A DNA stretch of 64,000 nucleotides from a virus: positions 9,014 to 73,013 of IMG/VR virus record IMGVR_UViG_3300030329_003201; one strand, written 5' to 3'. Every line of letters starts with the position of its first letter. Position 1 is the stretch's first letter. The notes under the pieces are model-generated. The model was not told the origin of the DNA, ran no database searches, and saw only the letters and a program-made list of their open reading frames with translations. Shown here one piece after another: positions 1 through 63,588 of this stretch. The position numbers were made by a program, and so were the translations under genes.

Positions 1-13
1 GATTGGGAGTCAC

Positions 14-280
14 TTGCAAAATACGCAGAGTCTTTCAATGACAACTCCAAATAGAAAGTTTCCAAAGCGCACAGAGTTTGATGAGTATGCTTTAGAGAAG
101 AGCAATGTTGCTTCACGCCATGCGTTCTACCGTGCTTTCGGTGAAGGCAAATCGGTGAAAGAAAGCTGGGACATTGCTGAGAAAGAGAGAAACAAAGTCT
201 ACGAGGCGACAACCGGGGAGCCACTTCCTGGTGGTATCAGGTCATACGGAGACGTGAGTAGTCTCGAAGACGAGCCATGA
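14..280 (+). CDS. Hypothetical protein
   Basis: 88-aa ORF with protein-like composition; true start may be ATG at 38. Confidence 0.55.
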   Translation: MQNTQSLSMTTPNRKFPKRTEFDEYALEKSNVASRHAFYRAFGEGKSVKESWDIAEKERNKVYEATTGEPLPGGIRSYGDVSSLEDEP

Positions 281-761
281 CTTCTTTCTTATCCGACTCT
301 GTCTTTGGAACTCCTATCTCTACAGCGCGTGCAAGCCTGCGATGATCTTTCTTCTTGTGCTCCAAGTAGACCCTGATCGCAGTCCTTGCCTCGTTGTCAG
401 AGAGCAGAATGCGGAAGGCCGTTCCGGCTCGTTGCTTTAGTTGTGATGCAACTAGAACAACAGCCGGGTCGTTCTCCTGCATTGCCTGCTTACACATTTC
501 AATATCAAGCAAGTCCACGTCGAGAGCGGCATCAAAGTCAGCCTGTTTAGGCTCAGGAAAGAACTCAGTTCTTATTGTGTTCTGCTTCCTGTCAGTTCTT
601 CTGCCGCCATACACGACGCGGACATCACGCCAAGCTGTTGTCCTGGTCACACCGAACCGATCTTGCAACGCACGACGAACCTCTTTGTCGGTGAATCCTG
701 AATTGATCATTCGGCTCGCAACGTCCACGCGCTCTTCAGCATCACGGCAAACCTTAGCCAT
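237..761 (-). CDS. Putative helix-turn-helix DNA-binding protein
   Basis: GFTDKEVRRALQDRFGVTRTTAWRDV resembles an HTH; start chosen at ATG 761 behind GAAGG. Confidence 0.6.
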   Translation of the reverse strand: MAKVCRDAEERVDVASRMINSGFTDKEVRRALQDRFGVTRTTAWRDVRVVYGGRRTDRKQNTIRTEFFPEPKQADFDAALDVDLLDIEMCKQAMQENDPAVVLVASQLKQRAGTAFRILLSDNEARTAIRVYLEHKKKDHRRLARAVEIGVPKTESDKKEVMARLRDYSRLRMT

Positions 762-772
762 AGGACCTTCAC

Positions 773-1177
773 ATGTCTGATTATCCTTCGATGCCATTTG
801 GAAACCCATCCGCGCCAACCTGGCGCAAAGCATTAGATGTTGCGGAAGGCAAAGCCGTTCCGATAACACCCACTCACTATATCGTTGTTCAGCTTTGGTT
901 AGCTTGGAGAATGGTTCAGTACGAAACCGGAGACGACACCGACATCGTTACGTTTGCTGCTGACTGTAATGCAACAGCGCGTGAAGCGACATCAGCCCTG
1001 GCAGGAACAATCAACAGCCAAAAGTTCACGATGAACGGTGTGATCCGCTGGGCAAGCGCAATCTCAAATGCGTGGAAAGATCGTGGCGTAAGTTACGAAC
1101 TCTGGATTGTTGTTCGGCCAGATGGAACCGGCACTGTAATCCCAAGACAACTGAACCAGGAGAACGAAAATGCATGA
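773..1177 (+). CDS. Hypothetical protein
   Basis: 134-aa ORF with AGGA upstream; overlaps the start of the next ORF. Confidence 0.6.
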   Translation: MSDYPSMPFGNPSAPTWRKALDVAEGKAVPITPTHYIVVQLWLAWRMVQYETGDDTDIVTFAADCNATAREATSALAGTINSQKFTMNGVIRWASAISNAWKDRGVSYELWIVVRPDGTGTVIPRQLNQENENA

Positions 1178-1388
1178 GCAAATGATCGGTGTTCCACAGA
1201 GCGCCTTGTACTTTCCCTTATCGGTACTCGTCTTTATACTGATCTCTCGAATCGTAGGACACATACTTCTGTGGAAGTGCCCAAAAGCTTTTGAGCATCG
1301 TCAGGCAATGGGGGTTGGCTTTGGGATAACGTTCCACACAGCCTTCTTTTCCACCATGATTGTCTTGTATTGTATGAACTTAGATTAG
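1170..1388 (+). CDS. Small membrane protein with two TM helices
   Basis: Two hydrophobic stretches in 72 aa; GGAG upstream. Confidence 0.6.
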   Translation: MHEQMIGVPQSALYFPLSVLVFILISRIVGHILLWKCPKAFEHRQAMGVGFGITFHTAFFSTMIVLYCMNLD

Positions 1389-1558
1389 TTTGCAGTTCTG
1401 CTTTCTCTTGAAATGTTCACCCATTGGCATCGACTGCACCACGTTGCGCCTTTGAACGTTCCAGCAATCACCCGGATGTACGGAGGAAACGGCGCTCCCC
1501 TACTCATACATACAGGGCACACAGCGTCCAACACTTCCCCAAGCCTGCCGTCAAGCAT
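1385..1558 (-). CDS. Possible small zinc-finger protein
   Basis: MLDGRLGEVLDAVCPVC...WCSRC has two CxxC pairs and fills the gap between + strand genes. Confidence 0.4.
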   Translation of the reverse strand: MLDGRLGEVLDAVCPVCMSRGAPFPPYIRVIAGTFKGATWCSRCQWVNISRESRTAN

Positions 1559-1625
1559 CACCCGTGTTCCCGCGCTAAAGCATTGTCTAAGCGGTTCAGT
1601 TGTGTTTATCTCTGGAAAGAGTGAG

Positions 1626-2018
1626 ATGACCATGGGTAATGAGAACAACAAGCAGAATGGAACGGGTAAGTATGATTTCTTTATATCAGACCGGCTCGTT
1701 GAGAGGGGTATAGAAAATCGTAAAACACGACCAAAGTATTGGTCGGCATGGCAGGAAGATCCTAAGCTGGCCGGGATCGTTGCTTCTTTTGAAAGCGCAT
1801 TGGGCGAGCGCCTATCTGTCATTGGCGTCTCAGACACAGGCGTACCGCTACTAAACATTACCTCATCAAGGAAATCCATTCGCGCGAAAGCAAAGAAAGT
1901 AGGCCTTGTTTGGGGCAGGTGGCCTCGTGAATGCGGTTCATTTGTGACGTGCTGGCTTCCAGGTAGGCCCACCGAACCGTTACCGTCAAACCCATACCTT
2001 GCTTCTCAAATGGATTGA
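1626..2018 (+). CDS. Hypothetical protein
   Basis: 3' part of the 1413-2018 ORF (MTMGNENNK...) is protein-like. Confidence 0.55.
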   Translation: MTMGNENNKQNGTGKYDFFISDRLVERGIENRKTRPKYWSAWQEDPKLAGIVASFESALGERLSVIGVSDTGVPLLNITSSRKSIRAKAKKVGLVWGRWPRECGSFVTCWLPGRPTEPLPSNPYLASQMD

Positions 2019-2042
2019 CAGCAGCAGGATTTAGATTACACT
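2015..2042 (+). promoter_or_regulatory. Sigma70-type promoter for the leader RNA/tRNA-Asn transcript
   Basis: TTGACA (2015-2020), 16-nt spacer, TACACT (2037-2042); predicted +1 near G2049. Confidence 0.7.
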
Positions 2043-2048
2043 TAAGGT

Positions 2049-2130
2049 GTCGATAATTTGGTTGCCTCTAGATTACCGACTTTGTGTACATGCACCCAGA
2101 GAGGACCCACCTCTCTGGGTGTCATGCTTT
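2049..2130 (+). ncRNA. Candidate antisense sRNA in the tRNA 5' leader (two hairpins; loop complementary to the early-gene RBS motif)
   Basis: Hairpin 2049-2059/2070-2080 with loop GGTTGCCTCT; second 12-bp perfect hairpin CACCCAGAGAGG/CCTCTCTGGGTG (2093-2121). Confidence 0.6.
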
Positions 2131-2203
2131 TGGGGTGTAGTTCAATTGGCAGAACGCCTGACTGTTAATCAGGAAGTTGCAGGTTCGAGTCCTGCTGCCC
2201 CAG
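2131..2203 (+). tRNA. tRNA-Asn (GTT)
   Basis: Cloverleaf: acceptor TGGGGTG/TGCCCCA, D-arm GTTC/GAAC, anticodon arm CCTGA-CTGTTAA-TCAGG, T-arm GCAGG-TTCGAGT-CCTGC, discriminator G; full CCA not encoded. Confidence 0.96.
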
Positions 2204-2208
2204 CCTTA

Positions 2209-2592
2209 TCAAGCCTTCTTCTTGGCAGGAGCTTTCTTCTTAGGCGCTGCCTTCTTCTTGGCAGGAGCCTTCTTCTTAGGCGCTGCCTTCTTCTTAGGCG
2301 CTGCCTTCTTCACGACAACATCATCTGGTGTGCCAAGCTTTCCATCATCACCAGGCATAATCTCTACATCGATAAAACCAACAGATGCCTTTGCGCTGCC
2401 CGATGTTCCGCTAAGTTCCAGTGCATAGATATGCGCCAGCAAATCACGAATAGGTTTGCAATGGCGACACGCGCCACGGTTGTTGTGTAGACATCGAGAT
2501 CCAGGGTAATACTCACCGGACTCAGGACAGGCAGTCTGCTTTTCGTATTGTGCAAGCTGCGATTTAGAAAGAAGAGACGGTTGTAGTGCCAT
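2209..2592 (-). CDS. Protein with Cys-rich N-terminus and histone H1-like KKAAPK tail
   Basis: C-terminus KKAAPKKKAAPKKKAPAKKKAAPKKKAPAKKKA; AGGAG RBS. Confidence 0.85.
   Translation of the reverse strand: MALQPSLLSKSQLAQYEKQTACPESGEYYPGSRCLHNNRGACRHCKPIRDLLAHIYALELSGTSGSAKASVGFIDVEIMPGDDGKLGTPDDVVVKKAAPKKKAAPKKKAPAKKKAAPKKKAPAKKKA
2212..2310. repeat. 18-bp coding tandem repeats (KKKAAP/KKKAPA)
   Basis: Repeated CTTCTTCTTAGGCGCTGC / CTTCTTCTTGGCAGGAGC units. Confidence 0.85.
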
Positions 2593-2621
2593 TGTTTACT
2601 CCTAAATGGGAGTAAAGTCTA

Positions 2622-4016
2622 TCACCAATCTTGTCCACTTTCGTATATATCATCAATGTCTGCACGCTTTCTCATGGCTGATTGCTTTATGTATGAGTCA
2701 ACCATATCAAGACGATCAGAAAACTTCTGGTGGTTGGCGTTCCAGTCGAGAAGAACCGTGCCGGTTGGACCATTCCGTTGCTTTGCAATGATGGCCTCGG
2801 CATGATTTGGGTTTGCCTTTGGGTCATAGTAATGGTGCCGGTACAAAAAGATAGCCACATCAGCGTCTTGTTCCAACGACCCCGAGCCTCTAAGGTCGGA
2901 AAGCTTAGGCCGCTTGTTGGTCCTTGCTTCACAACCTCGATTCAACTGAGCCAAACACAGGACAGGAATAGAAAGGTTCCGCGATAAGATCTTCATCGAA
3001 GTGGAGATCTGTGCAACCGACTGCTCAACGCTCTCTGCATTTGGTTGCTTGATTAGCTGAAGGTAATCCACGATGATCAGGCCCAGGTCTGGCCGCATTG
3101 CCTTTAGCCGTCTCGCTTTCGCAGAGATCTTGGCTACGCTAATGCCGGACTCATCATGAACAAAAAATGGTGCGTTGTGTATAAACTCAAGCGCATCGCT
3201 ATCCAAACGATCCCAATCCTTCAAGTTCAGCGAACCGCTTCGGATCTTACTTGAATCAACACCGGACAATGACGACGCTACACGATCAATCAAGGCCCCC
3301 CTGTCCATTTCAAGAGAGAAGAAACCAACAGGAATGTTGGAGCGCAATGCTTCTACAGCAATGTTCAGCGCCATTGCCGTCTTTCCCATTGAAGGGCGGG
3401 CCGCCAGAAGAATCAGTCCCGGCTCAATACTGCAAAGCTTTCTGTCGAGATCAGGTATGCCGGTCTTAAGTTTTACAGTAGTGGGATTCTTGTGCTGTTC
3501 AACACGGGACTCCCATCTGTTCTGCGCGTCAAGAGCCATGCTCGACCCATTGTGCCAGTCAGTCTGAGACTGATCGCCTGCAATATTCAACAGGTTCTTT
3601 TGGGCTGACTCGATAAGCTCATCAAGCTCAAGAGATGGATCAGATGAGTTGCTGATTAGCTTTTGAGAAGCCAGCACCATTTTGCGACGAATAGATGTTT
3701 CCTTTATTCTTTCCGCGTACTCGGGAACAATCATTGGAATGCAAGCGTAATCACCCATTTCCGAAATATTGGTTAAGCTTCCGTACTTTGCTGAGTCCAA
3801 ATCAATGATGTGCTGAGACACCACTAAACTATCAAAATACTTAGACTGTCTTCGAAAGGTTTTTAGTAGATCAAACAATCTGCCATTGGCCGTGACAGAG
3901 AAATCATGCTTCGATAAAATCCCATCAACCTCATCAATCAACTCATGGTTCATGAGTATTGCGCCTAAGAGCGCTTTTTCTATCTGGACTGTTGCGGGAA
4001 GTTTTTTAATTTCCAA
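2622..4016 (-). CDS. dnaB: Replicative DNA helicase
   Basis: Motifs AARPSMGKT, FSLEM, IIVDYLQL, LAQLNR, DLRGSGSLEQDAD, KQRNGPTG. Confidence 0.97.
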   Translation of the reverse strand: MEIKKLPATVQIEKALLGAILMNHELIDEVDGILSKHDFSVTANGRLFDLLKTFRRQSKYFDSLVVSQHIIDLDSAKYGSLTNISEMGDYACIPMIVPEYAERIKETSIRRKMVLASQKLISNSSDPSLELDELIESAQKNLLNIAGDQSQTDWHNGSSMALDAQNRWESRVEQHKNPTTVKLKTGIPDLDRKLCSIEPGLILLAARPSMGKTAMALNIAVEALRSNIPVGFFSLEMDRGALIDRVASSLSGVDSSKIRSGSLNLKDWDRLDSDALEFIHNAPFFVHDESGISVAKISAKARRLKAMRPDLGLIIVDYLQLIKQPNAESVEQSVAQISTSMKILSRNLSIPVLCLAQLNRGCEARTNKRPKLSDLRGSGSLEQDADVAIFLYRHHYYDPKANPNHAEAIIAKQRNGPTGTVLLDWNANHQKFSDRLDMVDSYIKQSAMRKRADIDDIYESGQDW

Positions 4017-4935
4017 TGGTTGCCTCGTTTATCAATTGAATTGGTTGCCTAAAGTTCTTGTGTTCTTTTCGAAATGCGGCGCAAAACGCCGCCTTCATCT
4101 TTGAAAGAATGTACTCCCCGGTCGCGTCACCGAGAGCGCACCACCCACCAATCGCATCCAGCCCGGCAAGCATCGCCTCGTTGGTGCGATCATCACGACT
4201 GAACCTTGGTGGTTCTGCGCCAAGCTCTCCGACCGCCTGGAGCAATGAAGCCCACCCGCGCTCACTCATCTGGTCACGCTCGTTCTCATTTTGAGTCTCT
4301 GAAATCCACGCCGACCCATCCCACCTTTCGTTGGCGATAGTGACGTTTCGGTCCACCTTCTCGCGATTGAGAAGATTGGAGACATCCATGTACCCACCCT
4401 TTCTCCAGCCATCGACCAGGAAGTCCCCGTCCGGGTACTCGAATGCCATTCGAATGACAAGCATTAGATCCTGTGGAGTGTGCCCACCTTTTAGGGCCGC
4501 ACTCAATACGCGCTTACGCCCAGCAGTCATCTTGTTGGTGCGACCGGATCGCTTTCGTTGAAGCGTGTGCCACAGGTCAAACACTGCCTTAATGTTCATT
4601 TCGTGGGACGAAACCGGGACAGAACTGGGACGCTCAGTCTTAGTGATTTCAACTACTTGTGCGTCACGAGTCTCGCTTTTCTGGGACAAAACTGGGACGG
4701 AAGTGGGACGCGACTTGTCGTGCTGTTCGATAAACTGACGAGTCTTCCGTTCTGCCCAGCCCCAACGATTAGCTAAGCGGCGACGGCCAGGACGAGTCTT
4801 TTGGGAATCCCAACAGGAAAGATCAATTGATACGGCTTCTTCAACCCACGGCTTTGAAAGAGTCTTGGCAAGCACCTGCCATGCACCAAACTCACAAACA
4901 AACCCTGACTTTTCAACTGCCGATTCGCCCACCAT
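4006..4935 (-). CDS. Putative phage replication initiator (lambda O/replisome-organizer-like)
   Basis: Directly upstream of dnaB; N-terminal wHTH-like GRRRLANRWGW; internal iteron-like repeats. Confidence 0.7.
   Translation of the reverse strand: MVGESAVEKSGFVCEFGAWQVLAKTLSKPWVEEAVSIDLSCWDSQKTRPGRRRLANRWGWAERKTRQFIEQHDKSRPTSVPVLSQKSETRDAQVVEITKTERPSSVPVSSHEMNIKAVFDLWHTLQRKRSGRTNKMTAGRKRVLSAALKGGHTPQDLMLVIRMAFEYPDGDFLVDGWRKGGYMDVSNLLNREKVDRNVTIANERWDGSAWISETQNENERDQMSERGWASLLQAVGELGAEPPRFSRDDRTNEAMLAGLDAIGGWCALGDATGEYILSKMKAAFCAAFRKEHKNFRQPIQLINEATIGN
4605..4709 (-). repeat. Iteron array inside the initiator gene (2 x 3 GTCCC, 11-bp period)
   Basis: GGGAC on + at 4605, 4616, 4627 and 4683, 4694, 4705. 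Confidence 0.75.
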
Positions 4936-5023
4936 TTCTGCCTGATCCCAAAGTGAAGTCCCTTCAGAATAGCGGAGCGTGAAGACCTGTCAAGGGAGAT
5001 GACAAACGGTGACAATCCGATCT

Positions 5024-5524
5024 TTATCGCATTTCAATCAATGCATATAATGCCAGGCATGCGGCATCTGCTAAACCATCATGTGCCTTTCTTCTTCGCC
5101 CAGGCCGTAGGTCTAAACCCGGAACACGCTGCTCACAAACAAGAATAGAGCGGCCCTTTCCTTGGCCTGGCGCATCACGAAGTACGCGACTCATCCATGT
5201 CTTTGGGTGGACGCTAATCACAGGCACTTCGTAGCTGGCTAAAATGCCACGCCATAAACCCCAGCCAAGACCGATGGACAACATGCTGGTTCCACCTTGC
5301 CCAGGGCGAGCGCCTTGTTTTTCCACCGCTGCATACACGCGATCCTTATCAACCAGGCTTTGAATCGCCTCGGCCATTCGGTATTCGGCGTACTCACGCT
5401 TGCTTCCTTTACCGATGGGAACCGTAAACTCGGGTTTAGTCATCCAAGAACCAACTACTTTGCCCGCATCATCGATGGCCACAATAGCTCCATCCTTGCC
5501 AGGGTCCACTCCAAGAAAAATCAT
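5024..5524 (-). CDS. RuvC-like Holliday junction resolvase
   Basis: IFLGVDPGKDGA, AVEKQ, VHPKTW, DGLADA motifs. Confidence 0.9.
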   Translation of the reverse strand: MIFLGVDPGKDGAIVAIDDAGKVVGSWMTKPEFTVPIGKGSKREYAEYRMAEAIQSLVDKDRVYAAVEKQGARPGQGGTSMLSIGLGWGLWRGILASYEVPVISVHPKTWMSRVLRDAPGQGKGRSILVCEQRVPGLDLRPGRRRKAHDGLADAACLALYALIEMR

Positions 5525-5760
5525 TCAACCTCCTCAATGTCTGGAACAAGATCATCAAACAGAAGAGAACCAGGAGAAACGCCAAGGACATCGGATAGAT
5601 ACACAATCCGGTTGTGTCTCGGAAGTACCGAGCCGGAAGTGTACTTCTTGAGTAACGAATAGCTGATCCCGTGCTCACGAGAGAACTCTCTCATCCCCTT
5701 GCCGGACACAGCTATGAGCCAGTGTAGGTTCTGCCCGAAAATCTTTGACCTGTCTTGCAT
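5521..5760 (-). CDS. XRE-family HTH transcriptional regulator
   Basis: FGQNL...MREFSREHGISYSLLKKY...P...LSDVLGVSPGSLL pattern. Confidence 0.85.
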   Translation of the reverse strand: MQDRSKIFGQNLHWLIAVSGKGMREFSREHGISYSLLKKYTSGSVLPRHNRIVYLSDVLGVSPGSLLFDDLVPDIEEVE

Positions 5761-5776
5761 GCGTGTTACTTACCAT

Positions 5777-5810
5777 ATGGTGGGCGCAAAAGCTAATCCC
5801 ACCATTGACA
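5777..5810. promoter_or_regulatory. Inverted repeat (operator-like) abutting a -35 box in the divergent control region
   Basis: ATGGTGGG (5777-5784), 13 nt, CCCACCAT (5798-5805), then TTGACA (5805-5810). Confidence 0.5.
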
Positions 5811-5882
5811 GGGCTCATAAAATGAACCATGTTTGTGGTGCGGACAATTTTAGCCCCTTCAATCTAATACAATGGTGACATC

Positions 5883-6458
5883 ATGAATATCATTCCAGAA
5901 GAACAACAGAGCCTCAGAACCAAAGACAAGGCGAATACAAAGAAGATTATCGACGTGTCTTTGCTCGAATCTATCGGCAGCAGAATGGTCACCAAGACTC
6001 TTCTAGAGGTTGACCCGAGTTTTCGAACGAAGGACATGATCTCAAGCTGGCGTATTCCAAACATTCTGAACGCAGTAGATGAATCGACTTGGTTCAACAT
6101 GGTGTCTGCATGCCTTGACGGTCAGAAGAAAACTCTTGTGAATCAACAACCAAACGGTGATTGGCAGCCATGCGGATTTGAGTTCGACAAACGGGAAGAC
6201 AGCGGCGTCCCCACGCTTGTCCTTGGTGTTCGATGGGCGGACCAGAATGGAGCCGAAGATCTTGCTTACCAGAACGGTGCTCCGGTTGTGAACGTCAGCG
6301 TAAAGACCGAGGCACCTCAAGAGAGCGCACAGCTTGCAGAACTACTTACGCTTCTCGCGCAAGGACAGATGTCTGTAAACGAAACGCTTGCTAGCCTCAA
6401 GGCGCAAGAGGACACCACTGAAACAACTAAGGGCCGTAAGCCAAAGGCTAAGTCGTAA
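5883..6458 (+). CDS. Hypothetical protein
   Basis: 191-aa ORF with GGTG upstream. Confidence 0.7.
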   Translation: MNIIPEEQQSLRTKDKANTKKIIDVSLLESIGSRMVTKTLLEVDPSFRTKDMISSWRIPNILNAVDESTWFNMVSACLDGQKKTLVNQQPNGDWQPCGFEFDKREDSGVPTLVLGVRWADQNGAEDLAYQNGAPVVNVSVKTEAPQESAQLAELLTLLAQGQMSVNETLASLKAQEDTTETTKGRKPKAKS

Positions 6459-6633
6459 TATGTTCGTCGTCGGGATGAGCAGGGATGATAGTGCCAGCCT
6501 TCGAGAGACGGCCCGCCTCAGCAAGCTTTCGCCCTCTGTCGAGGGCTTGCCTGCGGTCTTCCCCGTTATCAATCTGGCGCTTCACATATTTTGCCGCACG
6601 GGCGATACCAGTATTTCCAAGTTTCTTTGTCAT
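6448..6633 (-). CDS. Possible small basic protein
   Basis: MTKKLGNTGIARAAKYVKR... fills the gap before yqaJ. Confidence 0.35.
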   Translation of the reverse strand: MTKKLGNTGIARAAKYVKRQIDNGEDRRQALDRGRKLAEAGRLSKAGTIIPAHPDDEHITT

Positions 6634-6671
6634 GAAAACATCATAGCCCATTAGCAGATTCGGAGGCAACC

Positions 6672-7607
6672 TTGTCGCACAGCATAGACTGGCATGAAGC
6701 CAGACGTAAAGGTCTTGGAGGGTCGGACATTGCGGCCATCCTTGGCCTATCCAAATGGCGAACACCCATGGATGTATGGGTAGAAAAGATGGGACTGGTA
6801 GAACCGAGCGAAGAGAACTACGCAATGATGCGTGGAAGGATTCTCGAAGACGCCATCGCACAGTGGTACGGCGAGTTTACTGGGTACGATCTTCATCCTG
6901 GTGAAGAGATGCCCATAGAAGGAAAACACCCTTGGATGTTGGCATCACCTGATCGATACGTCGATGACGACGTATCCCGTTTTATTTTGGAAGTCAAGAG
7001 CGCTCGTTCCGCAGATGACTGGGGCGCAATGGGAACTGCCAAAGTTCCGGTATACTACGCCACCCAGGGCGCTTGGTACATGGCATGTAAGAACATGGAT
7101 CGTTGTGATTATGCTGCCCTGTTTATGATCAACGATGAGTTCAGGATGTACACAGTCCATAGGGATAAAGCTGTGGAGAACCGACTTGTTGAGGTTGCTG
7201 GTGACTGGTGGCAGAAGCACATAGTTAAAGGCGAGCAGCCTGATATGGATGGCTCGAATGCTGCATCTCAGTATCTACAGGACAAGTTTCCTGAAAACGC
7301 AATTGAGATGAGAAGCGCGACCATCGACGAGGAAGACCTGATGCTTGAGTTGGACAGTGTCCAAAACAAAATCAAGGAACTGGAGTCAACCAAGTCGAGG
7401 CTCCAAAACGAAATCAAAGCTTGTATTGGAGAGTCTTCAGGACTCTATACAGGTAGTGGTAAAGCCACCTGGAAGCTCCAAAAAGGACGAGCATCTATCG
7501 ATACCAAGAGACTAAAAGAAGAGTTCCCAGACATTGCAAAGGAACTAACCAAACACTCCAAGCCTAAGCGTATGTTTCGCTTAGATATTAAACACAGAAA
7601 GAGGTAA
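6672..7607 (+). CDS. YqaJ-like viral recombinase exonuclease
   Basis: WHEARRKGLGGSDIAAILG, ASPDR, LEVK motifs. Confidence 0.95.
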   Translation: MSHSIDWHEARRKGLGGSDIAAILGLSKWRTPMDVWVEKMGLVEPSEENYAMMRGRILEDAIAQWYGEFTGYDLHPGEEMPIEGKHPWMLASPDRYVDDDVSRFILEVKSARSADDWGAMGTAKVPVYYATQGAWYMACKNMDRCDYAALFMINDEFRMYTVHRDKAVENRLVEVAGDWWQKHIVKGEQPDMDGSNAASQYLQDKFPENAIEMRSATIDEEDLMLELDSVQNKIKELESTKSRLQNEIKACIGESSGLYTGSGKATWKLQKGRASIDTKRLKEEFPDIAKELTKHSKPKRMFRLDIKHRKR

Positions 7608-7609
7608 CC

Positions 7610-8443
7610 ATGCCGAGAACTAATGAGATCGAGAAGAAAGAAGCGACACCAATGGTCAAGTTCAAAGACCTTGTCGATAAAATGAAGCCAGAGTTGATGG
7701 AGGTACTTCCAAAGCACCTGACTTCTGAGCGAATGGCAAAGGTGTTGATGATTGAAGCACACAACACACCAGCATTGCTGGAGTGCTCGTTCAAATCCAT
7801 TGCCCAATCAGTCATGCTTTCAGCACAGATCGGGCTTGAGCCAGGCGGAATGCTTGGGCACATGTACTTCATTCCATTCAATGACCGTAAGTCTGGCAGC
7901 AAGACCTGCACTCCAATCATTGGGTACAAAGGGATGCTTGAGCTTGCCCGGCGTAGTGGCCAGGTCAAATGGCTTGATGCTCGCGTTGTTTACAAAGGAG
8001 AACCCTTTGGTGTGACTGCGGGTCTTCAGCCGGACATTACTCACGAGGTTCGTGGTGAGGTTGACCGAAATGATAAGAATGTTGTAGCTGCCTACGCTGT
8101 TGTAGTTCTTAAAGACGGCGGCCAATACTTTGAAGTGCTGTGGAAGAACGACATTGATCGTATCAAGAAGCGCTCACGCGGTGGCCGTAGTGGACCGTGG
8201 ATTGACGACTACGCCAGGATGGCACGCAAGAGCGCCATTCGTGCATTGTTCAATGGTGGAGCGGTCCCAATGTCTGTTGAAATGGCGACAGCTATTGAAA
8301 TCGACGGAGACAACCCGCACTACAACACTGACGTTATCGAGGCCACTGTTTCGAACAGCGGCTCACCAACAACGGCTAGCGCATCAGATGGAATGGACGG
8401 CCTTCGAGCAGTCCTTGTCAATGACGACGTAGCAGAAAGCTAA
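7610..8443 (+). CDS. recT: RecT single-strand annealing protein
   Basis: AQIGLEP, YFIPF, IGYKGMLELARRSG, MARKSAIR motifs; follows yqaJ. Confidence 0.95.
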   Translation: MPRTNEIEKKEATPMVKFKDLVDKMKPELMEVLPKHLTSERMAKVLMIEAHNTPALLECSFKSIAQSVMLSAQIGLEPGGMLGHMYFIPFNDRKSGSKTCTPIIGYKGMLELARRSGQVKWLDARVVYKGEPFGVTAGLQPDITHEVRGEVDRNDKNVVAAYAVVVLKDGGQYFEVLWKNDIDRIKKRSRGGRSGPWIDDYARMARKSAIRALFNGGAVPMSVEMATAIEIDGDNPHYNTDVIEATVSNSGSPTTASASDGMDGLRAVLVNDDVAES

Positions 8444-16868: not shown

Positions 16869-19800
16869 CTATCGTTCGCGAGGAGGTTTAATTTCCTTCG
16901 CCCTTTGTTTCTCTTCCCATAATAATCGCTCTGTCAACTCTACTTCTTTGGCTTCTGGCGTCTTGACCAGTCTAGGTCTAAAGAATACGCCTAGCCGCTC
17001 TCCTTCCAAGCCGATCTCAGGGCGCGGACCAACACCTCGTGTCCAATACGAAGAGTCCTCTATTTTGTCGTAAAGGTTCTTGTCTGGTGTTGTTGGCCCA
17101 AACAAGTCTTCTTCTATGTACCCATGGTGCTCTCTGTACTCACGCATCTTGTTGGCGAGATAAAGAACAGTTTCGACATATCCTACGTCAGCCCTGTCGA
17201 ACTGAACCCATGAATCCGCACTTCGACCGGATGGAATAATGCCAAAGCGTCTCTCTTTGATGGCGCTTGGTATTTGCGGAATGGAGCGAATAATCAAGCT
17301 TGGCACCGTTTGGTCCAAAGCTTGTCCAATTTTTGGGATTTTACTAACCCAGGTTTCTCCAGGTATATCGATTACTGGAACTGGCATTTGTAGCGCATTT
17401 TTCCACAACCAGTAGTTTCTTGGATTCTGAGCAACCCAAACCTCAGTTTGCGACGGATATTCTTTCTTCAACTCATTAGTGATTGGAACAGGGGTGGCGT
17501 CAAGAAAGTCTAGGACGAACAATCCGCCAGTCATATATATATCCAATTCAACAATGCTGGTTGGAATCACGTCTCCAGCGAGCCCTCGTGTCCTGAAGAT
17601 TTCCTCGTCAAACATGTATACCAAGGGCTGCTGAAGAAGCGGATTCAGACGAGCCAGGAAACGAAGACCGTTCTCTCTTTCTTCTTTTGACGCATTGCGA
17701 TTAAATCCGCCGCTAATAAACGCACCAATCTCTCTGTGTAGATTGATTGCATCCATAAGAGGAACCGGCGCTGCCAAAAATCTTACGCCTTGGTAAATGC
17801 TTTTATTTGCGTGTGCATTCCTAAACAGGACGCTCAGCCTCTGAGAGGTGTAGTCGTCCTCCATGAGGATGCTGCTTCCTTCAGTGTTCTGCTGGTTCAA
17901 CCCTCGCATCATCCGAATCTGGGCCATAAGCCTATGTGGATTTGTTACTAAGGTGTCGTAGAAGAGGTTGAGGTTGTTCCTTGTGTAGGAGTAGAACAGG
18001 AATCCTCTTCGCAAAACCTGCTTTTCCCAATCGGTCAACTTCGAATAGTCATACATGGCGTCGGTAGCTGTTTTTGCTGCCTCTGCCATTGACCTCCCGT
18101 TGTAAAGCTCATCAACAAAGACGCCCGACCTAAAGTAGTTATCAATCGAAGTAGCTGTTTCGACGAGTAACCGCTGTGCTTGGCCTGGAGCTTCAGCCAC
18201 AATCTTGTGCCACGCAGCTTCGTTTTTCTCCAAGTCACGAAGCATGTGTGATGCGTTTCCGCTTTTTACAAAAGAGGTGTTTAGCTTATAAAGCTTCATT
18301 GCATCAAGAAGCATTTCAGTAGTGAAAATGCGACCGTCTTTGCAAACCAAAGCTCTTGCGGAAGAAACGCTGTTAATGTTTGGCCCATCACCCCAAAGTC
18401 TGGCCGATAAAATTCCCGACAGGCGAGGATGGGCAAGCGCCCCTATAAGACCGCCTTCAATACGCACACCATCTGCGCCAACTTTCAAACCAAGACCAGA
18501 TTTTTGGTAGATCTGAAACAGCGAACCAACCGTAATGCCCTGGTAATAATGAACGTTTGGCTGACCAATACCAACCGTTACACCCTGACGAAGCATTGAA
18601 TAGGTGAACCCATAGAGCCTAAGCGTGTAATCAAGCGTGTCCGCAATCAGAATCTTTGCGGCAACGCCTGGCTTTAGTCTTAATTCGGGGTCTAAGGCTT
18701 CATCGCCAAATAGGAATTCTCTTCCAAGCTCTGTCGCAACGTCTTCACCGCGCTTTCCTCGTTTTTCAAAAGCCTCAGCCACCCTACCTTTTGCGCCTTT
18801 ACCAAAAGCCCCCTGTCCGCTTACTCTGTCTATAGCAGCATTTAGTTCATCAAGAACCATTGGAGGAACAAGAGTGCGTGATCCATCTGGCGCAACCCAA
18901 TCGACCCAGTCTTCTGTGGCAGATCCGAACTTGAATCCCCAAGCATTTAAGATTTCATGCGCCGCTGTGTAGGCAGCCATGTCATGGATGGTATGCGTCT
19001 GCTGTGCGCCTTCGGGTGCTTTTAAATCTAGATACGGTATCCGACGTGTATCATCGTCCCAATCCTGACGTGGATAGATTGGATCTCCATCAGCCGCAGC
19101 GCCTGGTTCTGCTGGCCTAACAACCTCATCAATGTCTCCGCGCCGCCCTTCTCTAAATCCAGACGGAGCTTGAATAATGTTTCCTTCTGCGTCACGAACA
19201 ATCGCGGCACCGCCTGGACGAAGCTCCATATTTATGTAGTGCTTTACGCGCTCCATAAATCGCGTTGCGTCTTTACCGTTTGCATATTGTGAAACAAGAT
19301 CGTCTGTTCTTGCCGTAATCCCGATTTCTACCAACTTATCAACGAACTTGGCTTGGATTTCTCTGGCCCTCATGCGAACAATCAGTTGAATCGCGGCATG
19401 TCGTGCATCATATGCAGGAAGCACATCTGGTCGCGTTCCAGTCTCAAGACCGTGCTTCTGAGCCCACTCAAAGAGATCCGGCCAATCATTACCGTAAAAA
19501 CTGGAATACAATCGAGACTTCGTCGCGTCATCCATGACAGAGAGCGCTGCTTTTGCTTGAGCGGCGCTACCCGAAATACACTCAACAATATCGGTCACTC
19601 GTTGATCTAATAGATTGTACCTGTCGTGAAGTCCACGCTCAATAATATCGATACTGTCTCGCAGACCATTGACCTGATGCTTTGAAAGTTCGACAACATC
19701 TTGCTGAATGGCGTCGTCGATTAGATCACGCAAGGCAATAATCGCGGCTCGCTCGCCATCTGTCATTCTTCCGCTTGCAGCAAACAGTCCGGTTATTGCA

Positions 19801-41524: not shown

Positions 41525-42817
41525 TCACGTTTTAGAGGGAGCACCGTATAGGTATCCAAAACCTCGCGACATATCATTAAATGGTTGTCGTCGATAAATG
41601 CGGTCTGCCCTATCAAGGTACTTCTTTTTCATCTGAAGAATCCGCTCAGTCGCCATCCTCTCGTACAGTTCGCCCACCTGAGATTGTCCGTATTGTCGAT
41701 ACAGTTCAGCCACTGTCTTGTAGACTAGAATCATGTGGTACTGAGGAGGGAACTGGGGAACGTCTGTGTCCCCAATGAGCCTATGAGGCCTTACATGGTA
41801 ACGAATCTCGCAGGTAAGATCTGAGTCTGGACGACGATAAACGCTCAACCACTCTCGTGGAAGCTGTTCAAACAAAGGCGCGTCGTTCTGTGCTGCCAAC
41901 CCTGTGTCACGGAAAGTCTGGTCAGAGCTTGGCACAGCAAACGTAAGAGTCCCGCTGTTTGGGGCAACCTCACCAATCTTAAAGAAGCCCGTATTCTTCG
42001 TCGCGTTTCGTCGGTAAATGATTTTTCTGGATCTAATATCAAAGGTTCCAGGTGGGTTTTCCCACATCAAATCAACACCTTGACCGCCTGATGTTGTGGT
42101 AACAGACACTACGGCAGACGGCGGAGACTCCATTCCCTCTGATTCAAGGGTCATGCAATACTCGTAGTTGGTCGCAGTTTCAAGCGTGCCAACACTAGAA
42201 GTAATGTTTGCTGTAAGCTGAAGCTCTTGCAAAGAAAGCATGTCCGACTGGTCTTCAAGAACGATGATCGGATCGCCAGATGTTGTTCGGTCCAGAATGA
42301 ACTGCTCTTCCCGTCGCGGATCGATGTAAGTCAACCGGGTATCTTTAGCGCCAGACGTGAACTCATCACGAACCGTGATGCCCAAAAAGTCCACCATGTC
42401 TTTTGGAAACCGGACCACGTCAAAAAGAATAGACCAGCTTGAAGATGTTGCGGTTGTCCCTTCATAAGGGCTCATCAAGATCAGCGCGTTTGGCGATGCG
42501 CCCGTATCAACATTTGTAATTCGATGTTCTACATCGTCAGGACCCTTGAAGGTCATCCCCTCCATATGGGTTCCAAACGTATAGGCACTGCTCGTAACGA
42601 TATGGCTTCCGCTCGTGACGGTAACGTCTACAGATCCTGTGATGTCTGCATACAGGGTTTGCTTGGTTCGTTTGTTTAGAAATCGCCAGGGAGATTCAGA
42701 CGCAATCTCTTCGTAATGGCGGTTGATAATACGAACAATACTGTTGGTGTGTGTATTGATGTTGGGGTTGTGATCAATCAACCCGTTCACCTCAGCAATC
42801 AGATCTTTTAGAATCAT
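41525..42817 (-). CDS. Head-tail adaptor / tail tubular protein A-like with inserted beta domains
   Basis: INRHY...PWRFL N-terminus; YRRPD and PQFPPQYHMILVY C-terminus. Confidence 0.7.
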   Translation of the reverse strand: MILKDLIAEVNGLIDHNPNINTHTNSIVRIINRHYEEIASESPWRFLNKRTKQTLYADITGSVDVTVTSGSHIVTSSAYTFGTHMEGMTFKGPDDVEHRITNVDTGASPNALILMSPYEGTTATSSSWSILFDVVRFPKDMVDFLGITVRDEFTSGAKDTRLTYIDPRREEQFILDRTTSGDPIIVLEDQSDMLSLQELQLTANITSSVGTLETATNYEYCMTLESEGMESPPSAVVSVTTTSGGQGVDLMWENPPGTFDIRSRKIIYRRNATKNTGFFKIGEVAPNSGTLTFAVPSSDQTFRDTGLAAQNDAPLFEQLPREWLSVYRRPDSDLTCEIRYHVRPHRLIGDTDVPQFPPQYHMILVYKTVAELYRQYGQSQVGELYERMATERILQMKKKYLDRADRIYRRQPFNDMSRGFGYLYGAPSKT

Positions 42818-59005: not shown

Positions 59006-59038
59006 CGCGCACCCACTTACACACCCAGGAGGCAACCG

Positions 59039-60060: not shown

Positions 60061-60080
60061 CTACAACACAGAGGCAACCA

Positions 60081-60401: not shown

Positions 60402-60415
60402 CCTGAGAGGCAACC

Positions 60416-60586
60416 ATGAAAGCATTCACTGACCCGATCACCGGGTGGACCGCGACCTTCCACTGCAACATCTGCGGGCTGCACTACCCGGTCCAAGTGC
60501 AGCCACCGAACAGACCCAAGCTCCCCTGTACTGAGTGCGGGCACAAAGACTTTCGAAGAGTAAAACCTAAGCGAGGCAACCAATGA
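60416..60586 (+). CDS. Small zinc-ribbon protein (56 aa, not in ORF track)
   Basis: GAGGCAACC-ATG; CNIC...CTECG. Confidence 0.7.
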   Translation: MKAFTDPITGWTATFHCNICGLHYPVQVQPPNRPKLPCTECGHKDFRRVKPKRGNQ

Positions 60587-60945: not shown

Positions 60946-60958
60946 AGCGAGGCAACCA

Positions 60959-61330: not shown

Positions 61331-61410
61331 ACTTTTTCTGTCCGCCAAGGACATCTCACCACGTCTTCTAAGTAGAGGCCACAACAACCAACCCCAATGA
61401 GGCAACCATC

Positions 61411-61764: not shown

Positions 61765-61774
61765 GGAGGCAACC

Positions 61775-62023: not shown

Positions 62024-62053
62024 CCGTGACAACTCAACAACTAAGAGGCAACC

Positions 62054-62434
62054 ATGAATAAACTCACACCGAACACTCAACTGTGGGACTACGACGACGA
62101 ACCCATCTTCCCCAGCATTGGAATCGTTCGCCACGTTTCCACTCACGACGGCTACACTGGCGGACTTGTAGAGGTTCTACCCAAGGATGGAAGCGAGCCC
62201 TACTTCCAGGTCTACATCCAGGTTGGCGAGCACGCAAAGGACGTGCGTGAATACATTGAGTTCACTGAAAACGACGACGCCGACTACATCATCCGCCGGT
62301 TCATCGAGGAGATGCAAGCCGACGAGCGTGATGCAGCAGACGAGATGAGACGAGAGATCGCAATGGAGCAAGGCATGCTCTATGGATGCGATGCATACAA
62401 CGAAGCCATGGGGTGGGAGGTGAGCTATGAATAA
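62054..62434 (+). CDS. Early hypothetical acidic protein
   Basis: GAGGCAACC-ATG; AMEQGMLYGCDAYNEAMG C-terminus. Confidence 0.8.
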   Translation: MNKLTPNTQLWDYDDEPIFPSIGIVRHVSTHDGYTGGLVEVLPKDGSEPYFQVYIQVGEHAKDVREYIEFTENDDADYIIRRFIEEMQADERDAADEMRREIAMEQGMLYGCDAYNEAMGWEVSYE

Positions 62435-62877: not shown

Positions 62878-62897
62878 TACAACACAGAGGCAACCAA

Positions 62898-62984
62898 ATG
62901 ATTACTGCTTACGCACTATCAATCTTTATGACAATCGCATTCTCCTCAACCAACACACCAGACCCAAGAGGCAACCATGGATGA
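62898..62984 (+). CDS. Possible 28-aa hydrophobic peptide
   Basis: AGAGGCAACCAA-ATG; MITAYALSIFMTIAFSS... Confidence 0.45.
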   Translation: MITAYALSIFMTIAFSSTNTPDPRGNHG

Positions 62985-63312
62985 TCACGACTGGGCAAAA
63001 TGGGAAGCCTACTACGAACCGAAGCTACCTCACGACCATCCCCGGTGTGAGGAGTGTTCCGAGCATCTGTTCGAGGATGACATGGATCACGATGGCGATG
63101 CTGAGTTGTGTAACTACTGCGGCATTGTCTGTGATGCCTGCAATGAGAAGGCAATCAAGAAAGAAATCAAAGACGGAACTTCATATCACAAGGATGTGAA
63201 GAACCTTTGCATCTACTGCATTGAGCTTGTCGATGAAGGCGAGCTTGAGCCCGACGAAATCCACCCAATGTTCTACCCGTTCCAACAAGAGAGGCAACCA
63301 TGTACACAGTAA
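62977..63312 (+). CDS. Early Cys-rich zinc-binding protein
   Basis: CEEC, CNYC, CDAC, CIYC. Confidence 0.8.
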   Translation: MDDHDWAKWEAYYEPKLPHDHPRCEECSEHLFEDDMDHDGDAELCNYCGIVCDACNEKAIKKEIKDGTSYHKDVKNLCIYCIELVDEGELEPDEIHPMFYPFQQERQPCTQ

Positions 63313-63578: not shown

Positions 63579-63588
63579 GAGGCAACCA

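What the first reader, a model, noticed from the sequence alone, without database searches (positions are those of the whole stretch)
2015..2130. tRNA-leader hairpin whose loop is the exact antisense of the RBS shared by 14 early/replication genes: candidate phage translational off-switch
Seen: the promoter TTGACA-N16-TACACT predicts +1 at about G2049, the first base of a hairpin (GTCGATAATTT 2049-2059 / AGATTACCGAC 2070-2080; one mismatch, one G-U). Its loop is GGTTGCCTCT. Bases 2057-2069 (TTTGGTTGCCTCT) are the reverse complement of AGAGGCAACCAAA. This matches 13/13 at 62886, 12/12 at 60070 and 63578, and at least 9/9 at the other GAGGCAACC sites before the early genes, yqaJ (6663) and dnaB (4018-4026, minus strand). 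I did not find the perfect motif at late structural gene starts. A second 12-bp hairpin and tRNA-Asn follow. Established: RNase P cleaves tRNA 5' leaders, and loop-seeded antisense RNAs block ribosome binding at SD/start regions. Inference: an ~80-nt sRNA released by tRNA processing silences an early regulon by pairing over SD and spacer, giving an RNA-based early-to-late switch. Alternative: the minus-strand fold would display AGAGGCAACC as a decoy for an RNA-binding protein. I know of no described phage system of this form.
Basis: partly seen in the sequence, partly recalled or inferred. Interest (0 to 1): 0.92.

Follow-up and report, generated by a model that had tools for sequence, protein, structure and literature searches.

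The report
Phage small RNA matching its early-gene RBS
An uncultured marine phage and its relatives carry a small, stand-alone RNA gene whose invariant core is the exact antisense of the ribosome-binding tag shared by about twenty of the phage's own early and replication genes, so it probably switches those genes off together, though no expression data exist yet.

Summary
GAGGCAACC occurs 15 times in the window (0.6 expected) and 19 times in the 73-kb phage genome. Eighteen copies lie 0-3 nt before a start codon. The 19th is the antisense copy at 2060-2068, with no start codon or ORF after it.

The 'tRNA leader' reading is wrong in general. The block at 2015-2130 is a self-contained unit: promoter, hairpin 1, then terminator hairpin with U tract. 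I found 12 sequence variants in marine phage contigs whose DnaB is only about 47-84% identical to the window's.
- Seven of the 12 have no tRNA beside it.
- Three have tRNA-Asn on the opposite strand.
- Two sit in another gene context.

All 12 keep TTGAnn-N16/17-TAnAnT and both hairpins, with compensatory changes. The 11 aligned keep the 11-mer UUGGUUGCCUC unchanged, and the 12th holds it too. That 11-mer is the complement of GAGGCAACCAA, the commonest SD-spacer-start form.

Best reading (about 0.5): a trans-acting antisense sRNA that occludes the tagged RBSs. It would be an RNA counterpart of T4 RegB/RegA. Expression, direction of regulation and timing are untested. No RNA runs or cultured relatives were found. 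The loop and the tag are co-conserved, so covariation could not be tested.

The parts
2015..2042 (+). Sigma-70-like promoter of the sRNA: TTGACA (2015-2020), 16-nt spacer, TACACT (2037-2042). The stop codon of the upstream 130-aa gene (2016-2018) lies inside the -35 hexamer.
   Evidence: 10 of 12 match; the geometry TTGAnn-N16/17-TAnAnT is kept in 12 of 12 variants while the spacer sequences differ. TTGA is invariant.
2049..2130 (+). Predicted ~82-nt small RNA: hairpin 1, linker CUUUGUGUA, terminator hairpin, U tract. Both ends are predicted, not mapped.
   Evidence: MFE -40.3 kcal/mol, z -8.1, 0 of 200 shuffles; the same two-hairpin fold in all 12 variants, with compensatory changes.
2049..2080 (+). 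Hairpin 1, with hexaloop UUGCCU at 2062-2067.
   Evidence: top helix 100% paired across 11 variants.
2058..2068 (+). Invariant core TTGGTTGCCTC, the reverse complement of GAGGCAACCAA. It would pair with the Shine-Dalgarno sequence, the spacer and, with a 1-nt gap, the first base of the start codon.
   Evidence: 11 consecutive invariant columns in 11 variants. Also present in L256.
2089..2131 (+). Intrinsic-terminator-like hairpin (2089-2126, one bulged U) followed by CUUUU. The last U (2131) is also nucleotide 1 of the tRNA.
   Evidence: 5 of 7 pairs of helix 2 show changes on both sides.
2131..2205 (+). tRNA-Asn (GTT). It is a variable neighbour, not part of the conserved unit. In this genome it may be read through from the sRNA promoter.
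   Evidence: absent, or on the opposite strand, in relatives.
4018..4026 (-). RBS tag GAGGCAACC of dnaB (TTG start at 4016).
   Evidence: Kept before dnaB in relatives.
6663..6671 (+). RBS tag of the RecE-like exonuclease gene (TTG start at 6672).
59029..59037 (+). RBS tag, 58-aa ORF.
60071..60079 (+). RBS tag, 106-aa ORF (12-nt match to the sRNA).
60407..60415 (+). RBS tag, 56-aa zinc-ribbon-like ORF.
60573..60581 (+). RBS tag, 120-aa ORF.
60949..60957 (+). RBS tag, 123-aa ORF.
61399..61407 (+). RBS tag, 117-aa ORF.
61766..61774 (+). RBS tag, 82-aa ORF.
62045..62053 (+). RBS tag, 126-aa ORF.
62887..62895 (+). RBS tag, 28-aa ORF (13-nt match to the sRNA).
62968..62976 (+). RBS tag, 111-aa ORF.
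63291..63299 (+). RBS tag, 92-aa ORF.
63579..63587 (+). RBS tag, 118-aa ORF (12-nt match to the sRNA).

Best explanation
Window 2015-2130 is a stand-alone small-RNA gene of an uncultured marine podovirus-like phage. Host RNA polymerase would start at about G2049 from a sigma-70-type promoter. The transcript folds into a 5' hairpin that presents UUGCCU in a hexaloop, within the invariant 11-mer UUGGUUGCCUC. It ends at its own intrinsic terminator.

The 11-mer is complementary to GAGGCAACCAA. That is the Shine-Dalgarno sequence plus spacer, plus the first start-codon base, which the phage places before 18 of its genes exactly and about 5 more with one mismatch. These are small early ORFans, an ArdC/metallopeptidase-like protein, DnaB and a RecE-like exonuclease.

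Inferred mechanism: loop-initiated pairing spreads over the SD and spacer, blocks 30S binding and possibly exposes the mRNA to decay. One RNA would thus down-regulate the whole tagged gene set, while late genes and translationally coupled genes, which use other SDs, escape.

Shown by computation: the gene architecture, its conservation, its strand, the complementarity and its favourable energy. Inferred only: that it is transcribed, that pairing represses rather than activates, and when during infection it acts.
For: **The unit is conserved and independent of the tRNA.**
- A metagenome scan used the 130-aa protein encoded just upstream as query. 18 of the 21 loci found carry GGTTGCCTC 44-47 nt after that gene's stop, or 438 nt after it where genes are inserted.
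- L136 has the unit about 3.2 kb away on the other strand.
- L256, whose DnaB belongs to the clade about 47% identical to the window's, has it in yet another context.
- That gives 12 full-length sequence variants. Two are followed by tRNA-Asn on the same strand (the window with its identical copy L117, and L122 with the tRNA on the opposite strand 200 nt away does not count here). In one search, tRNA-Asn is on the same strand only in window/L117; on the opposite strand in the L122, L124 and L132 variants; and absent from the rest.

**Promoter.** TTGAnn-N16/17-TAnAnT is present in 12 of 12 variants at a fixed distance from the core, with unrelated spacer sequences.

**Structure.**
- All variants fold into the same two hairpins: z -4.2 to -8.1, with 0 of 200 shuffles as stable, for each of the 11 variants tested.
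- On the 11-variant alignment, 96.1% of cells pair and 7 of 14 pairs change on both sides. 0 of 500 shuffles reach this. Controls with partners slid by 1-3 columns pair at 40-58%.

**Strand.**
- The U tract follows the GC hairpin only on this strand.
- This strand folds better than its complement in 10 of 11 variants, and by 14 kcal/mol in L256.

**Core.** 11 consecutive invariant columns, TTGGTTGCCTC, while both stems diverge. The 5' flank UUGG stays fixed although its partners in the stem vary (UAGA, CAAC, CAGU, CGCU). This points to an external pairing constraint.

**Targets.**
- 18 of 19 genomic GAGGCAACC copies are RBSs. The tag is also used as an RBS in every relative with enough sequence.
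- No called gene start in the late block exceeds 6 nt of complementarity.

**Energetics.** RNAcofold net gain is -5.2 to -16.4 kcal/mol (mean -9.5) for the 18 tagged start regions, against 0 to -5.3 (mean -2.6) for 32 late start regions. In 17 of 18 dimers the pairing uses sRNA nt 9-21.

**Precedent.** c4 of P1/P7 and sar of P22 block an RBS by antisense pairing (PMC12197685, sections 2 and 7 read). T4 RegB inactivates early mRNAs at an extended SD motif, GG*AGRAYARAA (PMC3014915, passages).
Against: - There is no evidence of transcription. No RNA run holds the locus and no cultured relative exists in the phage collection.
- Loop and tag never vary, so the decisive covariation test could not be done.
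- The one flanking position that differs between clades shows no clean matching shift in the base before GAGG. The sRNA reads CCUCU in clade 1 and CCUCC elsewhere. In the window genome that base is A 9, G 5, C 3, T 1 of 18, and both A and G are also common in clade 2 (my tally by eye).
- Only 6 nt of the core are unpaired in the predicted fold. In clade 2 the flanking GG/CC pairs are strong, so full pairing requires the stem to open.
- The leaders are CAAC-rich throughout, so part of the spacer's conservation may reflect composition.
- A near-consensus sigma-70 promoter would make the sRNA from the start of infection. That fits a damper or timer, but it does not by itself give an early-to-late switch.
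- In this genome the terminator has only 4 U and abuts the tRNA.
Confidence: 0.5

Rival explanations
1. The small RNA is real, but it does something other than repress the tagged RBSs. It might protect or activate those mRNAs, for example by shielding them from a nuclease that recognises the tag. It might act mainly on host mRNAs through its anti-SD-like CCUC. It might exclude superinfecting relatives. Or it might titrate a factor.
For: All the evidence for the gene says nothing about the direction of regulation. T4 shows that an extended early-gene SD motif can be a protein's target (RegB; PMC3014915, passages), so the tag could have a second reader. The promoter looks constitutive.
Against: Pairing across the SD and spacer is sterically incompatible with 30S binding in every characterised case I know of (established knowledge, and the c4 and sar precedents). 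Only 4 of the 11 invariant bases are anti-SD-like. The other 7 match the phage-specific spacer. No RegB- or RegA-like family was found among the 20 proteins scanned with Pfam, though that covers only part of the proteome.
Confidence: 0.2
2. One reading: the hairpins are the 5' leader of tRNA-Asn, and the sRNA exists only as an RNase P by-product of tRNA maturation.
For: In the window, and in its identical copy L117, the tRNA starts at the last U of the U tract, with no separate promoter between. Read-through and RNase P cleavage at 2130/2131 are therefore plausible here. L017 and L118 appear to keep short remnants of the tRNA ends.
Against: By, only the window/L117 variant has a same-strand tRNA downstream; three variants (L122, L124, L132) have tRNA-Asn on the opposite strand and the remaining eight have none. 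All 12 keep the promoter, both hairpins and a U-rich tail. A strong terminator-like hairpin between a promoter and its tRNA is not what a leader needs.
Confidence: 0.05
3. The functional strand is the minus strand. Either the hairpin displays AGAGGCAACC as an RBS-like decoy in the 3' UTR of the converging replication operon, for a tag-binding protein or for ribosomes, or it is the vestigial RBS of a lost minus-strand gene.
For: The minus-strand copy is a perfect tag. It lies downstream of the converging dnaB operon. The window's minus strand also folds well (-37.9 kcal/mol, z -6.4).
Against: No start codon or ORF follows it in the window, and none of the sRNA-locus copies listed in the 19 relatives' loci scanned, nor L256, has one; the longest is 4 aa, in L136. 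A vestige would not stay invariant between phages whose DnaB is only 47-52% identical to the window's. The promoter and U tract are on the plus strand in 12 of 12. The plus strand folds better in 10 of 11 variants, and by 14 kcal/mol in L256. G.U pairs such as the 5 of 28 pairs in L136 become C.A mismatches on the other strand.
Confidence: 0.07
4. It is a DNA-level element or plain punctuation: an operator or protein-binding palindrome at a promoter, or merely a bidirectional terminator between converging operons. The match to the RBS tag would then have no RNA function.
For: Hairpin 1 is an inverted repeat sitting at the predicted +1. The unit always lies where transcription units converge. 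Promoter-like and terminator-like matches alone are weak evidence.
Against: The arms of the repeat change by wobble-compatible and compensatory substitutions rather than keeping a DNA consensus, while the non-palindromic 11-mer is what stays invariant. The tag copies are all co-oriented with their genes at 0-3 nt from the start codon, which indicates RNA-level use. An exact 11-nt match to the commonest RBS form, kept in 12 variants, is not expected by chance.
Confidence: 0.08

Closest known systems
c4 antisense RNA of phages P1 and P7 (the sar RNA of P22 is similar)
   Same: It is a small, structured, phage-encoded RNA. Loop-exposed bases pair around a ribosome binding site of a phage mRNA and block translation (PMC12197685, section 7 read; sar in section 2).
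   Different: c4 and sar each control one target (ant) in a temperate immunity circuit. c4 is cut out of the same transcript as its target (the RNase P processing is recalled, not read here). The RNA here has its own promoter and terminator. Its complement is a tag shared by about 18-23 dispersed genes. No sign of lysogeny was found: the GTDB scan with the neighbouring protein gave nothing.
T4 RegB endoribonuclease and RegA translational repressor
   Same: They work alike at the level of logic. Many early cistrons are switched off together through a feature of their translation initiation regions. RegB recognises an extended SD motif, GG*AGRAYARAA, in intergenic early-gene start regions and spares late mRNAs (PMC3014915, passages).
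   Different: RegB and RegA are proteins. Here the proposed reader of the tag is an RNA, and recognition would be by base pairing. This is not membership, only functional analogy.
Bacterial base-pairing sRNAs with C-rich loops that mask SD sequences (for example S. aureus RNAIII and Rsa RNAs; recalled, not read here)
   Same: A hairpin loop containing CCUC-like bases pairs with G-rich SDs of several mRNAs. The RNA ends in an intrinsic terminator.
   Different: Those RNAs recognise the generic SD and rely on imperfect extra pairing for each target. Here 7 further invariant bases match a spacer that the phage itself has standardised across its genes. Regulator and targets are all on the phage.
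Rfam families
   Same: None.
   Different: cmscan of 1500-2700 at E up to 1 returns only the tRNA and one sub-threshold plastid hit lying over the tRNA.

Membership tests
Any Rfam 15 RNA family | Match to a curated covariance model | tested here: not met
   within 1500-2700 at E up to 1, only tRNA (2131-2203) and a chance-level Plastid-ycf2 hit lying over the tRNA. Nothing on 2049-2130.
Trans-acting base-pairing sRNA (generic class) | Own promoter | tested here: met
   Sequence level only. TTGAnn-N16/17-TAnAnT in 12 of 12 variants, with divergent spacers and in three different gene contexts.
Trans-acting base-pairing sRNA (generic class) | Conserved secondary structure supported by covariation | tested here: met
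   96.1% of cells paired, 7 of 14 pairs with changes on both sides, 0 of 500 shuffles reaching this; z -4.2 to -8.1.
Trans-acting base-pairing sRNA (generic class) | Intrinsic terminator at the 3' end | tested here: met
   GC-rich hairpin followed by a U-rich tail in all variants. The tail is strong in L124, L132 and L136 (UUUU, UUUUAUUUU) and weak in L122, L125 and L256.
Trans-acting base-pairing sRNA (generic class) | Conserved seed complementary to its targets | tested here: met
   Invariant 11-mer. Complement present at 18 RBSs in this genome and used as an RBS in relatives. Favourable cofold energies.
Trans-acting base-pairing sRNA (generic class) | The RNA is expressed and changes target expression | not testable with these tools
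   No RNA holder listed. Only DNA contigs could be laid on the locus.
tRNA 5' leader | Lies between a promoter and a tRNA on the same strand, and is conserved together with that tRNA | tested here: not met
   True only for the window and its identical copy L117. The relatives keep the unit with no tRNA, or with tRNA-Asn on the opposite strand.
P1/P7 c4-type immunity RNA | Single target downstream in the same operon, in a temperate phage | tested here: not met
   The targets are 18 dispersed RBSs on two strands. No prophage copy turned up in one-genome-per-species GTDB contigs using the neighbouring protein as query, which is only weak evidence about lifestyle.
P1/P7 c4-type immunity RNA | Maturation by RNase P | not testable with these tools
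   Possible in the window only, where the tRNA abuts the 3' end.
Ordinary minus-strand RBS | Start codon and ORF after the motif | tested here: not met
   no start codon within range in the window or in the relatives' sRNA-locus copies listed. The longest ORF is 4 aa, in L136.

The most novel reading that the evidence does not exclude
A group of marine phages labels its early, anti-restriction, replication and recombination cistrons with one standard 11-nt SD-plus-spacer tag. The same phages encode a single small RNA that reads this tag by base pairing. This would be an RNA-programmed regulon that shuts off, or meters, the whole early programme after transcription. It would be the RNA counterpart of T4 RegB/RegA. 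It has been kept unchanged between phages whose DnaB proteins are only about 47-52% identical to the window's.
Probability: 0.45. Interest if true: 0.85.

Novelty: new variant of a known kind. Interest (0 to 1): 0.75.

Why it matters
Phage sRNAs described so far act on one phage gene or on host genes. The 2025 review I read lists VpdS, PreS, 24B_1, sar, OOP, aQ, IsrK, AgvB, AsxR and c4. A single sRNA whose seed matches a standardised ribosome-binding tag on about twenty of the phage's own genes would show that a virus can build a translational regulon by tagging its cistrons. It would also show an RNA doing what T4 does with proteins.

The system is compact and portable: an 80-nt RNA and an 11-nt tag. 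It can therefore be tested in a heterologous reporter even though the phage is uncultured. It would also be a natural template for orthogonal translational control.

It also explains why an SD spacer, normally free to drift, is frozen across distant relatives.

Tried and rejected
**Expression.** The look-up of sequencing runs listed 20 DNA holders, all marine metagenomes, and no RNA holder. Read laying on four DNA runs gave only tRNA-like pieces from other organisms, plus one identical contig in X6. It yielded no new variants.

**Cultured relatives.**
- Megablast of window 1-8000 found nothing.
- blastn of 1400-4100 matched only tRNA-Asn genes of unrelated phages.
- tblastn with the 130-aa protein and with a 783-aa late protein found nothing.

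**Prophage or host.** The scan of GTDB genome contigs with alignment A3 gave 32 pattern matches, none confirmed.

**More sRNA copies by pattern.**
- GTACATGCACCCAGAG matched 9 stretches. Five carry the sRNA, and all five are on contigs already found through DnaB. The other 4 are chance matches.
Of the 118 examined, only L183, the L038 contig, is the sRNA.

**Covariation between loop and tag.** This was impossible because both are invariant. The clade-specific base after CCUC (U or C) is not mirrored cleanly by the base before GAGG (my tally by eye).

**Energy and gene calling.**
- Plain duplexfold of the whole hairpin against start regions did not discriminate: 37% of random windows reached -14 kcal/mol or lower. 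I replaced it with a contiguous-match count and with cofold.
- My crude ORF caller missed 6 of the 18 tagged ORFs. Counts of tagged genes therefore rest, not or 55.

**Loci without the unit.** L123 and L133, 2 of the 21 metagenome loci, show neither the sRNA nor tagged RBSs. Both contigs end about 1 kb past the query gene, so they decide nothing.

**Rejected readings.** The ORF at 2047-2490 (147 aa, GTG) runs through the tRNA and is spurious. A hairpin with the same 16-nt top occurs in an unrelated group of contigs. I take it as chance, because a 14-mer is expected many times in that collection.

**Literature.** Searches found no description of this RNA, this tag, or a regulon-wide anti-RBS phage sRNA. 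Hits for the bare motif strings were unrelated primer sequences (listing only). I did not ask for supplementary files.

The long contigs (72 and 74 kb) that encode DnaB homologues about 50-52% identical to the window's could therefore not be fetched.
Full report
**What is in the sequence.**

The window is bases 9014-73013 of a 73,013-bp virus record estimated 99% complete.

At 2015-2042 lies TTGACA-N16-TACACT. It is the best sigma-70-like match in the first 9 kb. The number of such matches in that region is no higher than in shuffles, so the match alone is weak evidence.

From G2049 the plus strand folds into two hairpins:
- Hairpin 1, 2049-2080: 12 pairs, with A2053 and C2076 unpaired and the hexaloop UUGCCU.
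- A 9-nt linker.
- Hairpin 2, 2089-2126: 16 pairs with one bulge, followed by CUUUU.
- Overall: -40.3 kcal/mol, z -8.1, 0 of 200 shuffles as stable.

tRNA-Asn starts at 2131, which is the last U of that tract.

**The RBS tag.**

GAGGCAACC occurs 15 times in the window against 0.6 expected, and 0 of 100 shuffles reach 15. It occurs 19 times in the genome, and the reversed control pattern occurs 0 times.

Eighteen of the 19 copies are followed by ATG or TTG. The gap is 0 nt in 7, 1 nt in 9, 2 nt in 1 and 3 nt in 1. The ORFs opened are 28-464 aa long.

The 19th copy is the minus-strand one at 2060-2068. No start codon follows it.

Of 31 one-mismatch copies, 5 are plausible RBSs, including that of recT.

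The tagged genes are:
- small ORFans of the plus-strand early region;
- a protein with ArdC-N and metallopeptidase domains;
- DnaB;
- a RecE-like exonuclease.

Translationally coupled early genes use GGAGGTGA-type SDs instead. No called gene start in the late block exceeds 6 nt of complementarity to the hairpin top.

**It is not a tRNA leader.**

Relatives found through DnaB (81-84% identity) have no tRNA. Four of them still keep the whole block, written here on the dnaB-sense strand: terminator hairpin, linker, hairpin with GAGGCAACC, then the promoter hexamers.

I then scanned metagenome contigs with the 130-aa protein encoded just upstream (window 1626-2018). The query was independent of the RNA.
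- Of the 21 loci returned, 18 carry GGTTGCCTC 44-47 nt after that gene's stop, or 438 nt after it where two genes are inserted.
- A 19th, L136, carries the unit about 3.2 kb away on the other strand. There it has TTGACG-N17-TACAAT and a textbook terminator.
- The remaining two contigs end about 1 kb beyond the query gene.

A still more distant phage, L256, has the unit in yet another context. Its DnaB belongs to the clade about 47% identical to the window's.

tRNA-Asn is variable:
- same strand in the window and its identical copy L117;
- opposite strand in L122, L124, L130, L132 and L137;
- absent from the others.

**It looks like a small-RNA gene.**

There are twelve full-length sequence variants.
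- All 12 have TTGAnn, a 16-17-nt spacer of unrelated sequence, TAnAnT, and the first stem starting a few bases downstream.
- All 12 fold into the same two hairpins, and the hexaloop is always UUGCCU.
- On the 11-variant alignment, 96.1% of cells form standard pairs and 7 of 14 pairs show changes on both sides. None of 500 shuffles reaches these values. Controls with partners slid by 1-3 columns pair at 40-58%.
- The sRNA strand is more stable than its complement in 10 of 11 variants. In L256 the figures are -39.9 against -25.9 kcal/mol.
- The U-rich tail follows the GC hairpin only on this strand.
- No Rfam family matches.

**The core and its complement.**

The promoter-plus-RNA alignment has 11 consecutive invariant columns, TTGGTTGCCTC. 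Both stems, the linker and the terminator diverge almost completely between clades.

The invariant UUGG forms the 5' side of the top of stem 1. Its partners on the 3' side vary: UAGA, CAAC, CAGU, CGCU. These four bases are therefore not fixed by the helix.

The 11-mer is the complement of GAGGCAACCAA. This is the tag plus the commonest continuation, a 1-nt gap and then the A of ATG.

The tag is used as an RBS in every relative with enough sequence, including dnaB in both main clades.

RNAcofold charges for opening the hairpin and the mRNA.
- It gives a net gain of -5.2 to -16.4 kcal/mol (mean -9.5) for the 18 tagged start regions.
- It gives 0 to -5.3 (mean -2.6) for 32 late start regions.
- In 17 of 18 predicted dimers the pairing uses sRNA nt 9-21.

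**How it most likely works.**

Host polymerase makes an ~80-nt RNA. Its loop nucleates on the AGGCAA of a tagged, unstructured, CA-rich leader. Pairing then extends over 9-13 nt and covers the SD, the spacer and often the first base of the start codon.

This should exclude the 30S subunit and may speed decay. Many cistrons carry the same tag, so one RNA would act on the whole set. Late genes would be spared.

This is the logic of T4 RegB, which inactivates early mRNAs at an extended SD motif (PMC3014915, passages). The chemistry is that of c4 and sar (PMC12197685, sections 2 and 7).

Shown here, by computation only: the gene's architecture, conservation and strand, and the complementarity and its energy. 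Inferred: transcription, the sign of the effect and the timing. A near-consensus promoter suggests synthesis from the start of infection. I therefore favour a delayed damper or timer over a sharp switch. Exclusion of superinfecting relatives is an equally possible benefit.

**Weaknesses.**
- No RNA data exist, and no cultured relative was found.
- The single clade-specific base next to the core is not mirrored in the targets.
- Only six core bases are unpaired in the predicted fold.
- The leaders are CAAC-rich, so composition explains part of the spacer.
The most useful distant complete genomes could not be examined.

**Rivals.**
- A minus-strand RBS is excluded, because no start codon or ORF follows the motif in any sRNA-locus copy examined.
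- A minus-strand decoy and a DNA-level operator are disfavoured. The evidence is the strand asymmetry, the promoter and terminator orientation, the wobble and compensatory substitutions, and the strict co-orientation of the tags with their genes.
- A real sRNA with another function remains open.

**Novelty.**

I found no description of this RNA, of the tag, or of a phage sRNA aimed at a shared RBS of its own genes. Four full-text searches were run, and the 2025 review of phage sRNAs lists none.

Antisense occlusion of an RBS is a known mechanism, so I class this as a new variant of a known kind. It is a conserved family and an unusually clear, testable hypothesis.

An earlier first-reader note of this scan (e1-6178121) recorded the RBS tag on this same window. 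My counts agree with it.

Noticed in passing
L017:13640-13600 (minus strand), L118:5750-5790; compare window 2131-2205: Right after the sRNA terminator, L017 and L118 read GGGTGTAG-GTTC-CCAG. This looks like the two ends of the window's tRNA-Asn with the middle deleted, and suggests that the ancestor of this clade had the tRNA and lost it.
   Followed up: partly
L122:9105-9178, L124:2908-2983, L130:10402-10477, L132:5675-5750, L137:10402-10477 (all minus strand): In the second clade, tRNA-Asn sits on the opposite strand. In L124, L130, L132 and L137 it directly abuts the sRNA terminator, which may then serve both genes. tRNA-Asn stays near this locus but flips orientation.
   Followed up: partly
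L122, L124, L125, L131, L132, L134 terminator loops (alignment A5, columns about 60-67): The loop region of the terminator hairpin keeps GUCGGUC in all clade-2 variants (GUUGGUC in L136), although the stem changes by compensatory substitutions. This may be a second functional site.
   Followed up: no
L164, L182, L185, L220, L224, L245, L247: An unrelated group of IMG/VR contigs has a strong terminator-like hairpin, GCCTGCCGTTGG-TTGCCTC-CAACAGCAGGC plus a T run. Its top 16 nt are the same as in clade-2 hairpin 1, but no GAGGCAACC RBS occurs in the fetched loci. Probably chance.
   Followed up: partly
window 2209-2592 (-); L013 and L014 about 7800-7910: The last gene of the converging replication operon encodes a 127-aa protein with a histone-H1-like tail of repeated KKKAAPKKKA. 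It has no Pfam or PHROG match. L013 and L014 add a tiny basic ORF (MAYGKKSPMKKTYGKK...) after it.
   Followed up: no
window 4039-4051 (-): A partial second tag, TAGGCAACCAATT, lies 25 nt upstream of the dnaB tag, inside the end of the preceding gene. It is conserved in the relatives at 81-84% DnaB identity.
   Followed up: no
G000 893-6693 and window 62427-62651: Overlapping early genes (ATGA and TGATG junctions) use GGAGGTGAG-type SDs, the canonical extended complement of the 16S tail. Genes after an intergenic CA-rich leader use GAGGCAACC. There are thus two RBS classes in one operon system. In clade 2 the leaders contain long (CAAC)n-like runs.
   Followed up: partly
window 2058-2068 and clade-2 cores: GUUGGUUGCCUCC resembles the 3' end of bacterial 16S rRNA (GGUUGGAUCACCUCC; recalled from memory, not tested) with GAUCA replaced. 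The tag GGAGG-CAACC is the complement of that rRNA stretch without its middle five bases. This may be coincidence, because GGUUG is paired in helix 45.
   Followed up: no
window 16869-30983 (-): A 4704-aa ORF with an ART-PolyVal (ADP-ribosyltransferase of polyvalent proteins) domain. Together with an SU10-adaptor-like protein at 41525-42817, it suggests a podovirus with a giant ejected protein.
   Followed up: partly
L010:7940-8290, L011:7960-8310 (minus strand of the loci): In the L010/L011 clade, two extra genes are inserted between the 130-aa gene and the sRNA promoter. By eye, one looks like a small CxxC zinc-ribbon protein. The sRNA unit itself is untouched.
   Followed up: no
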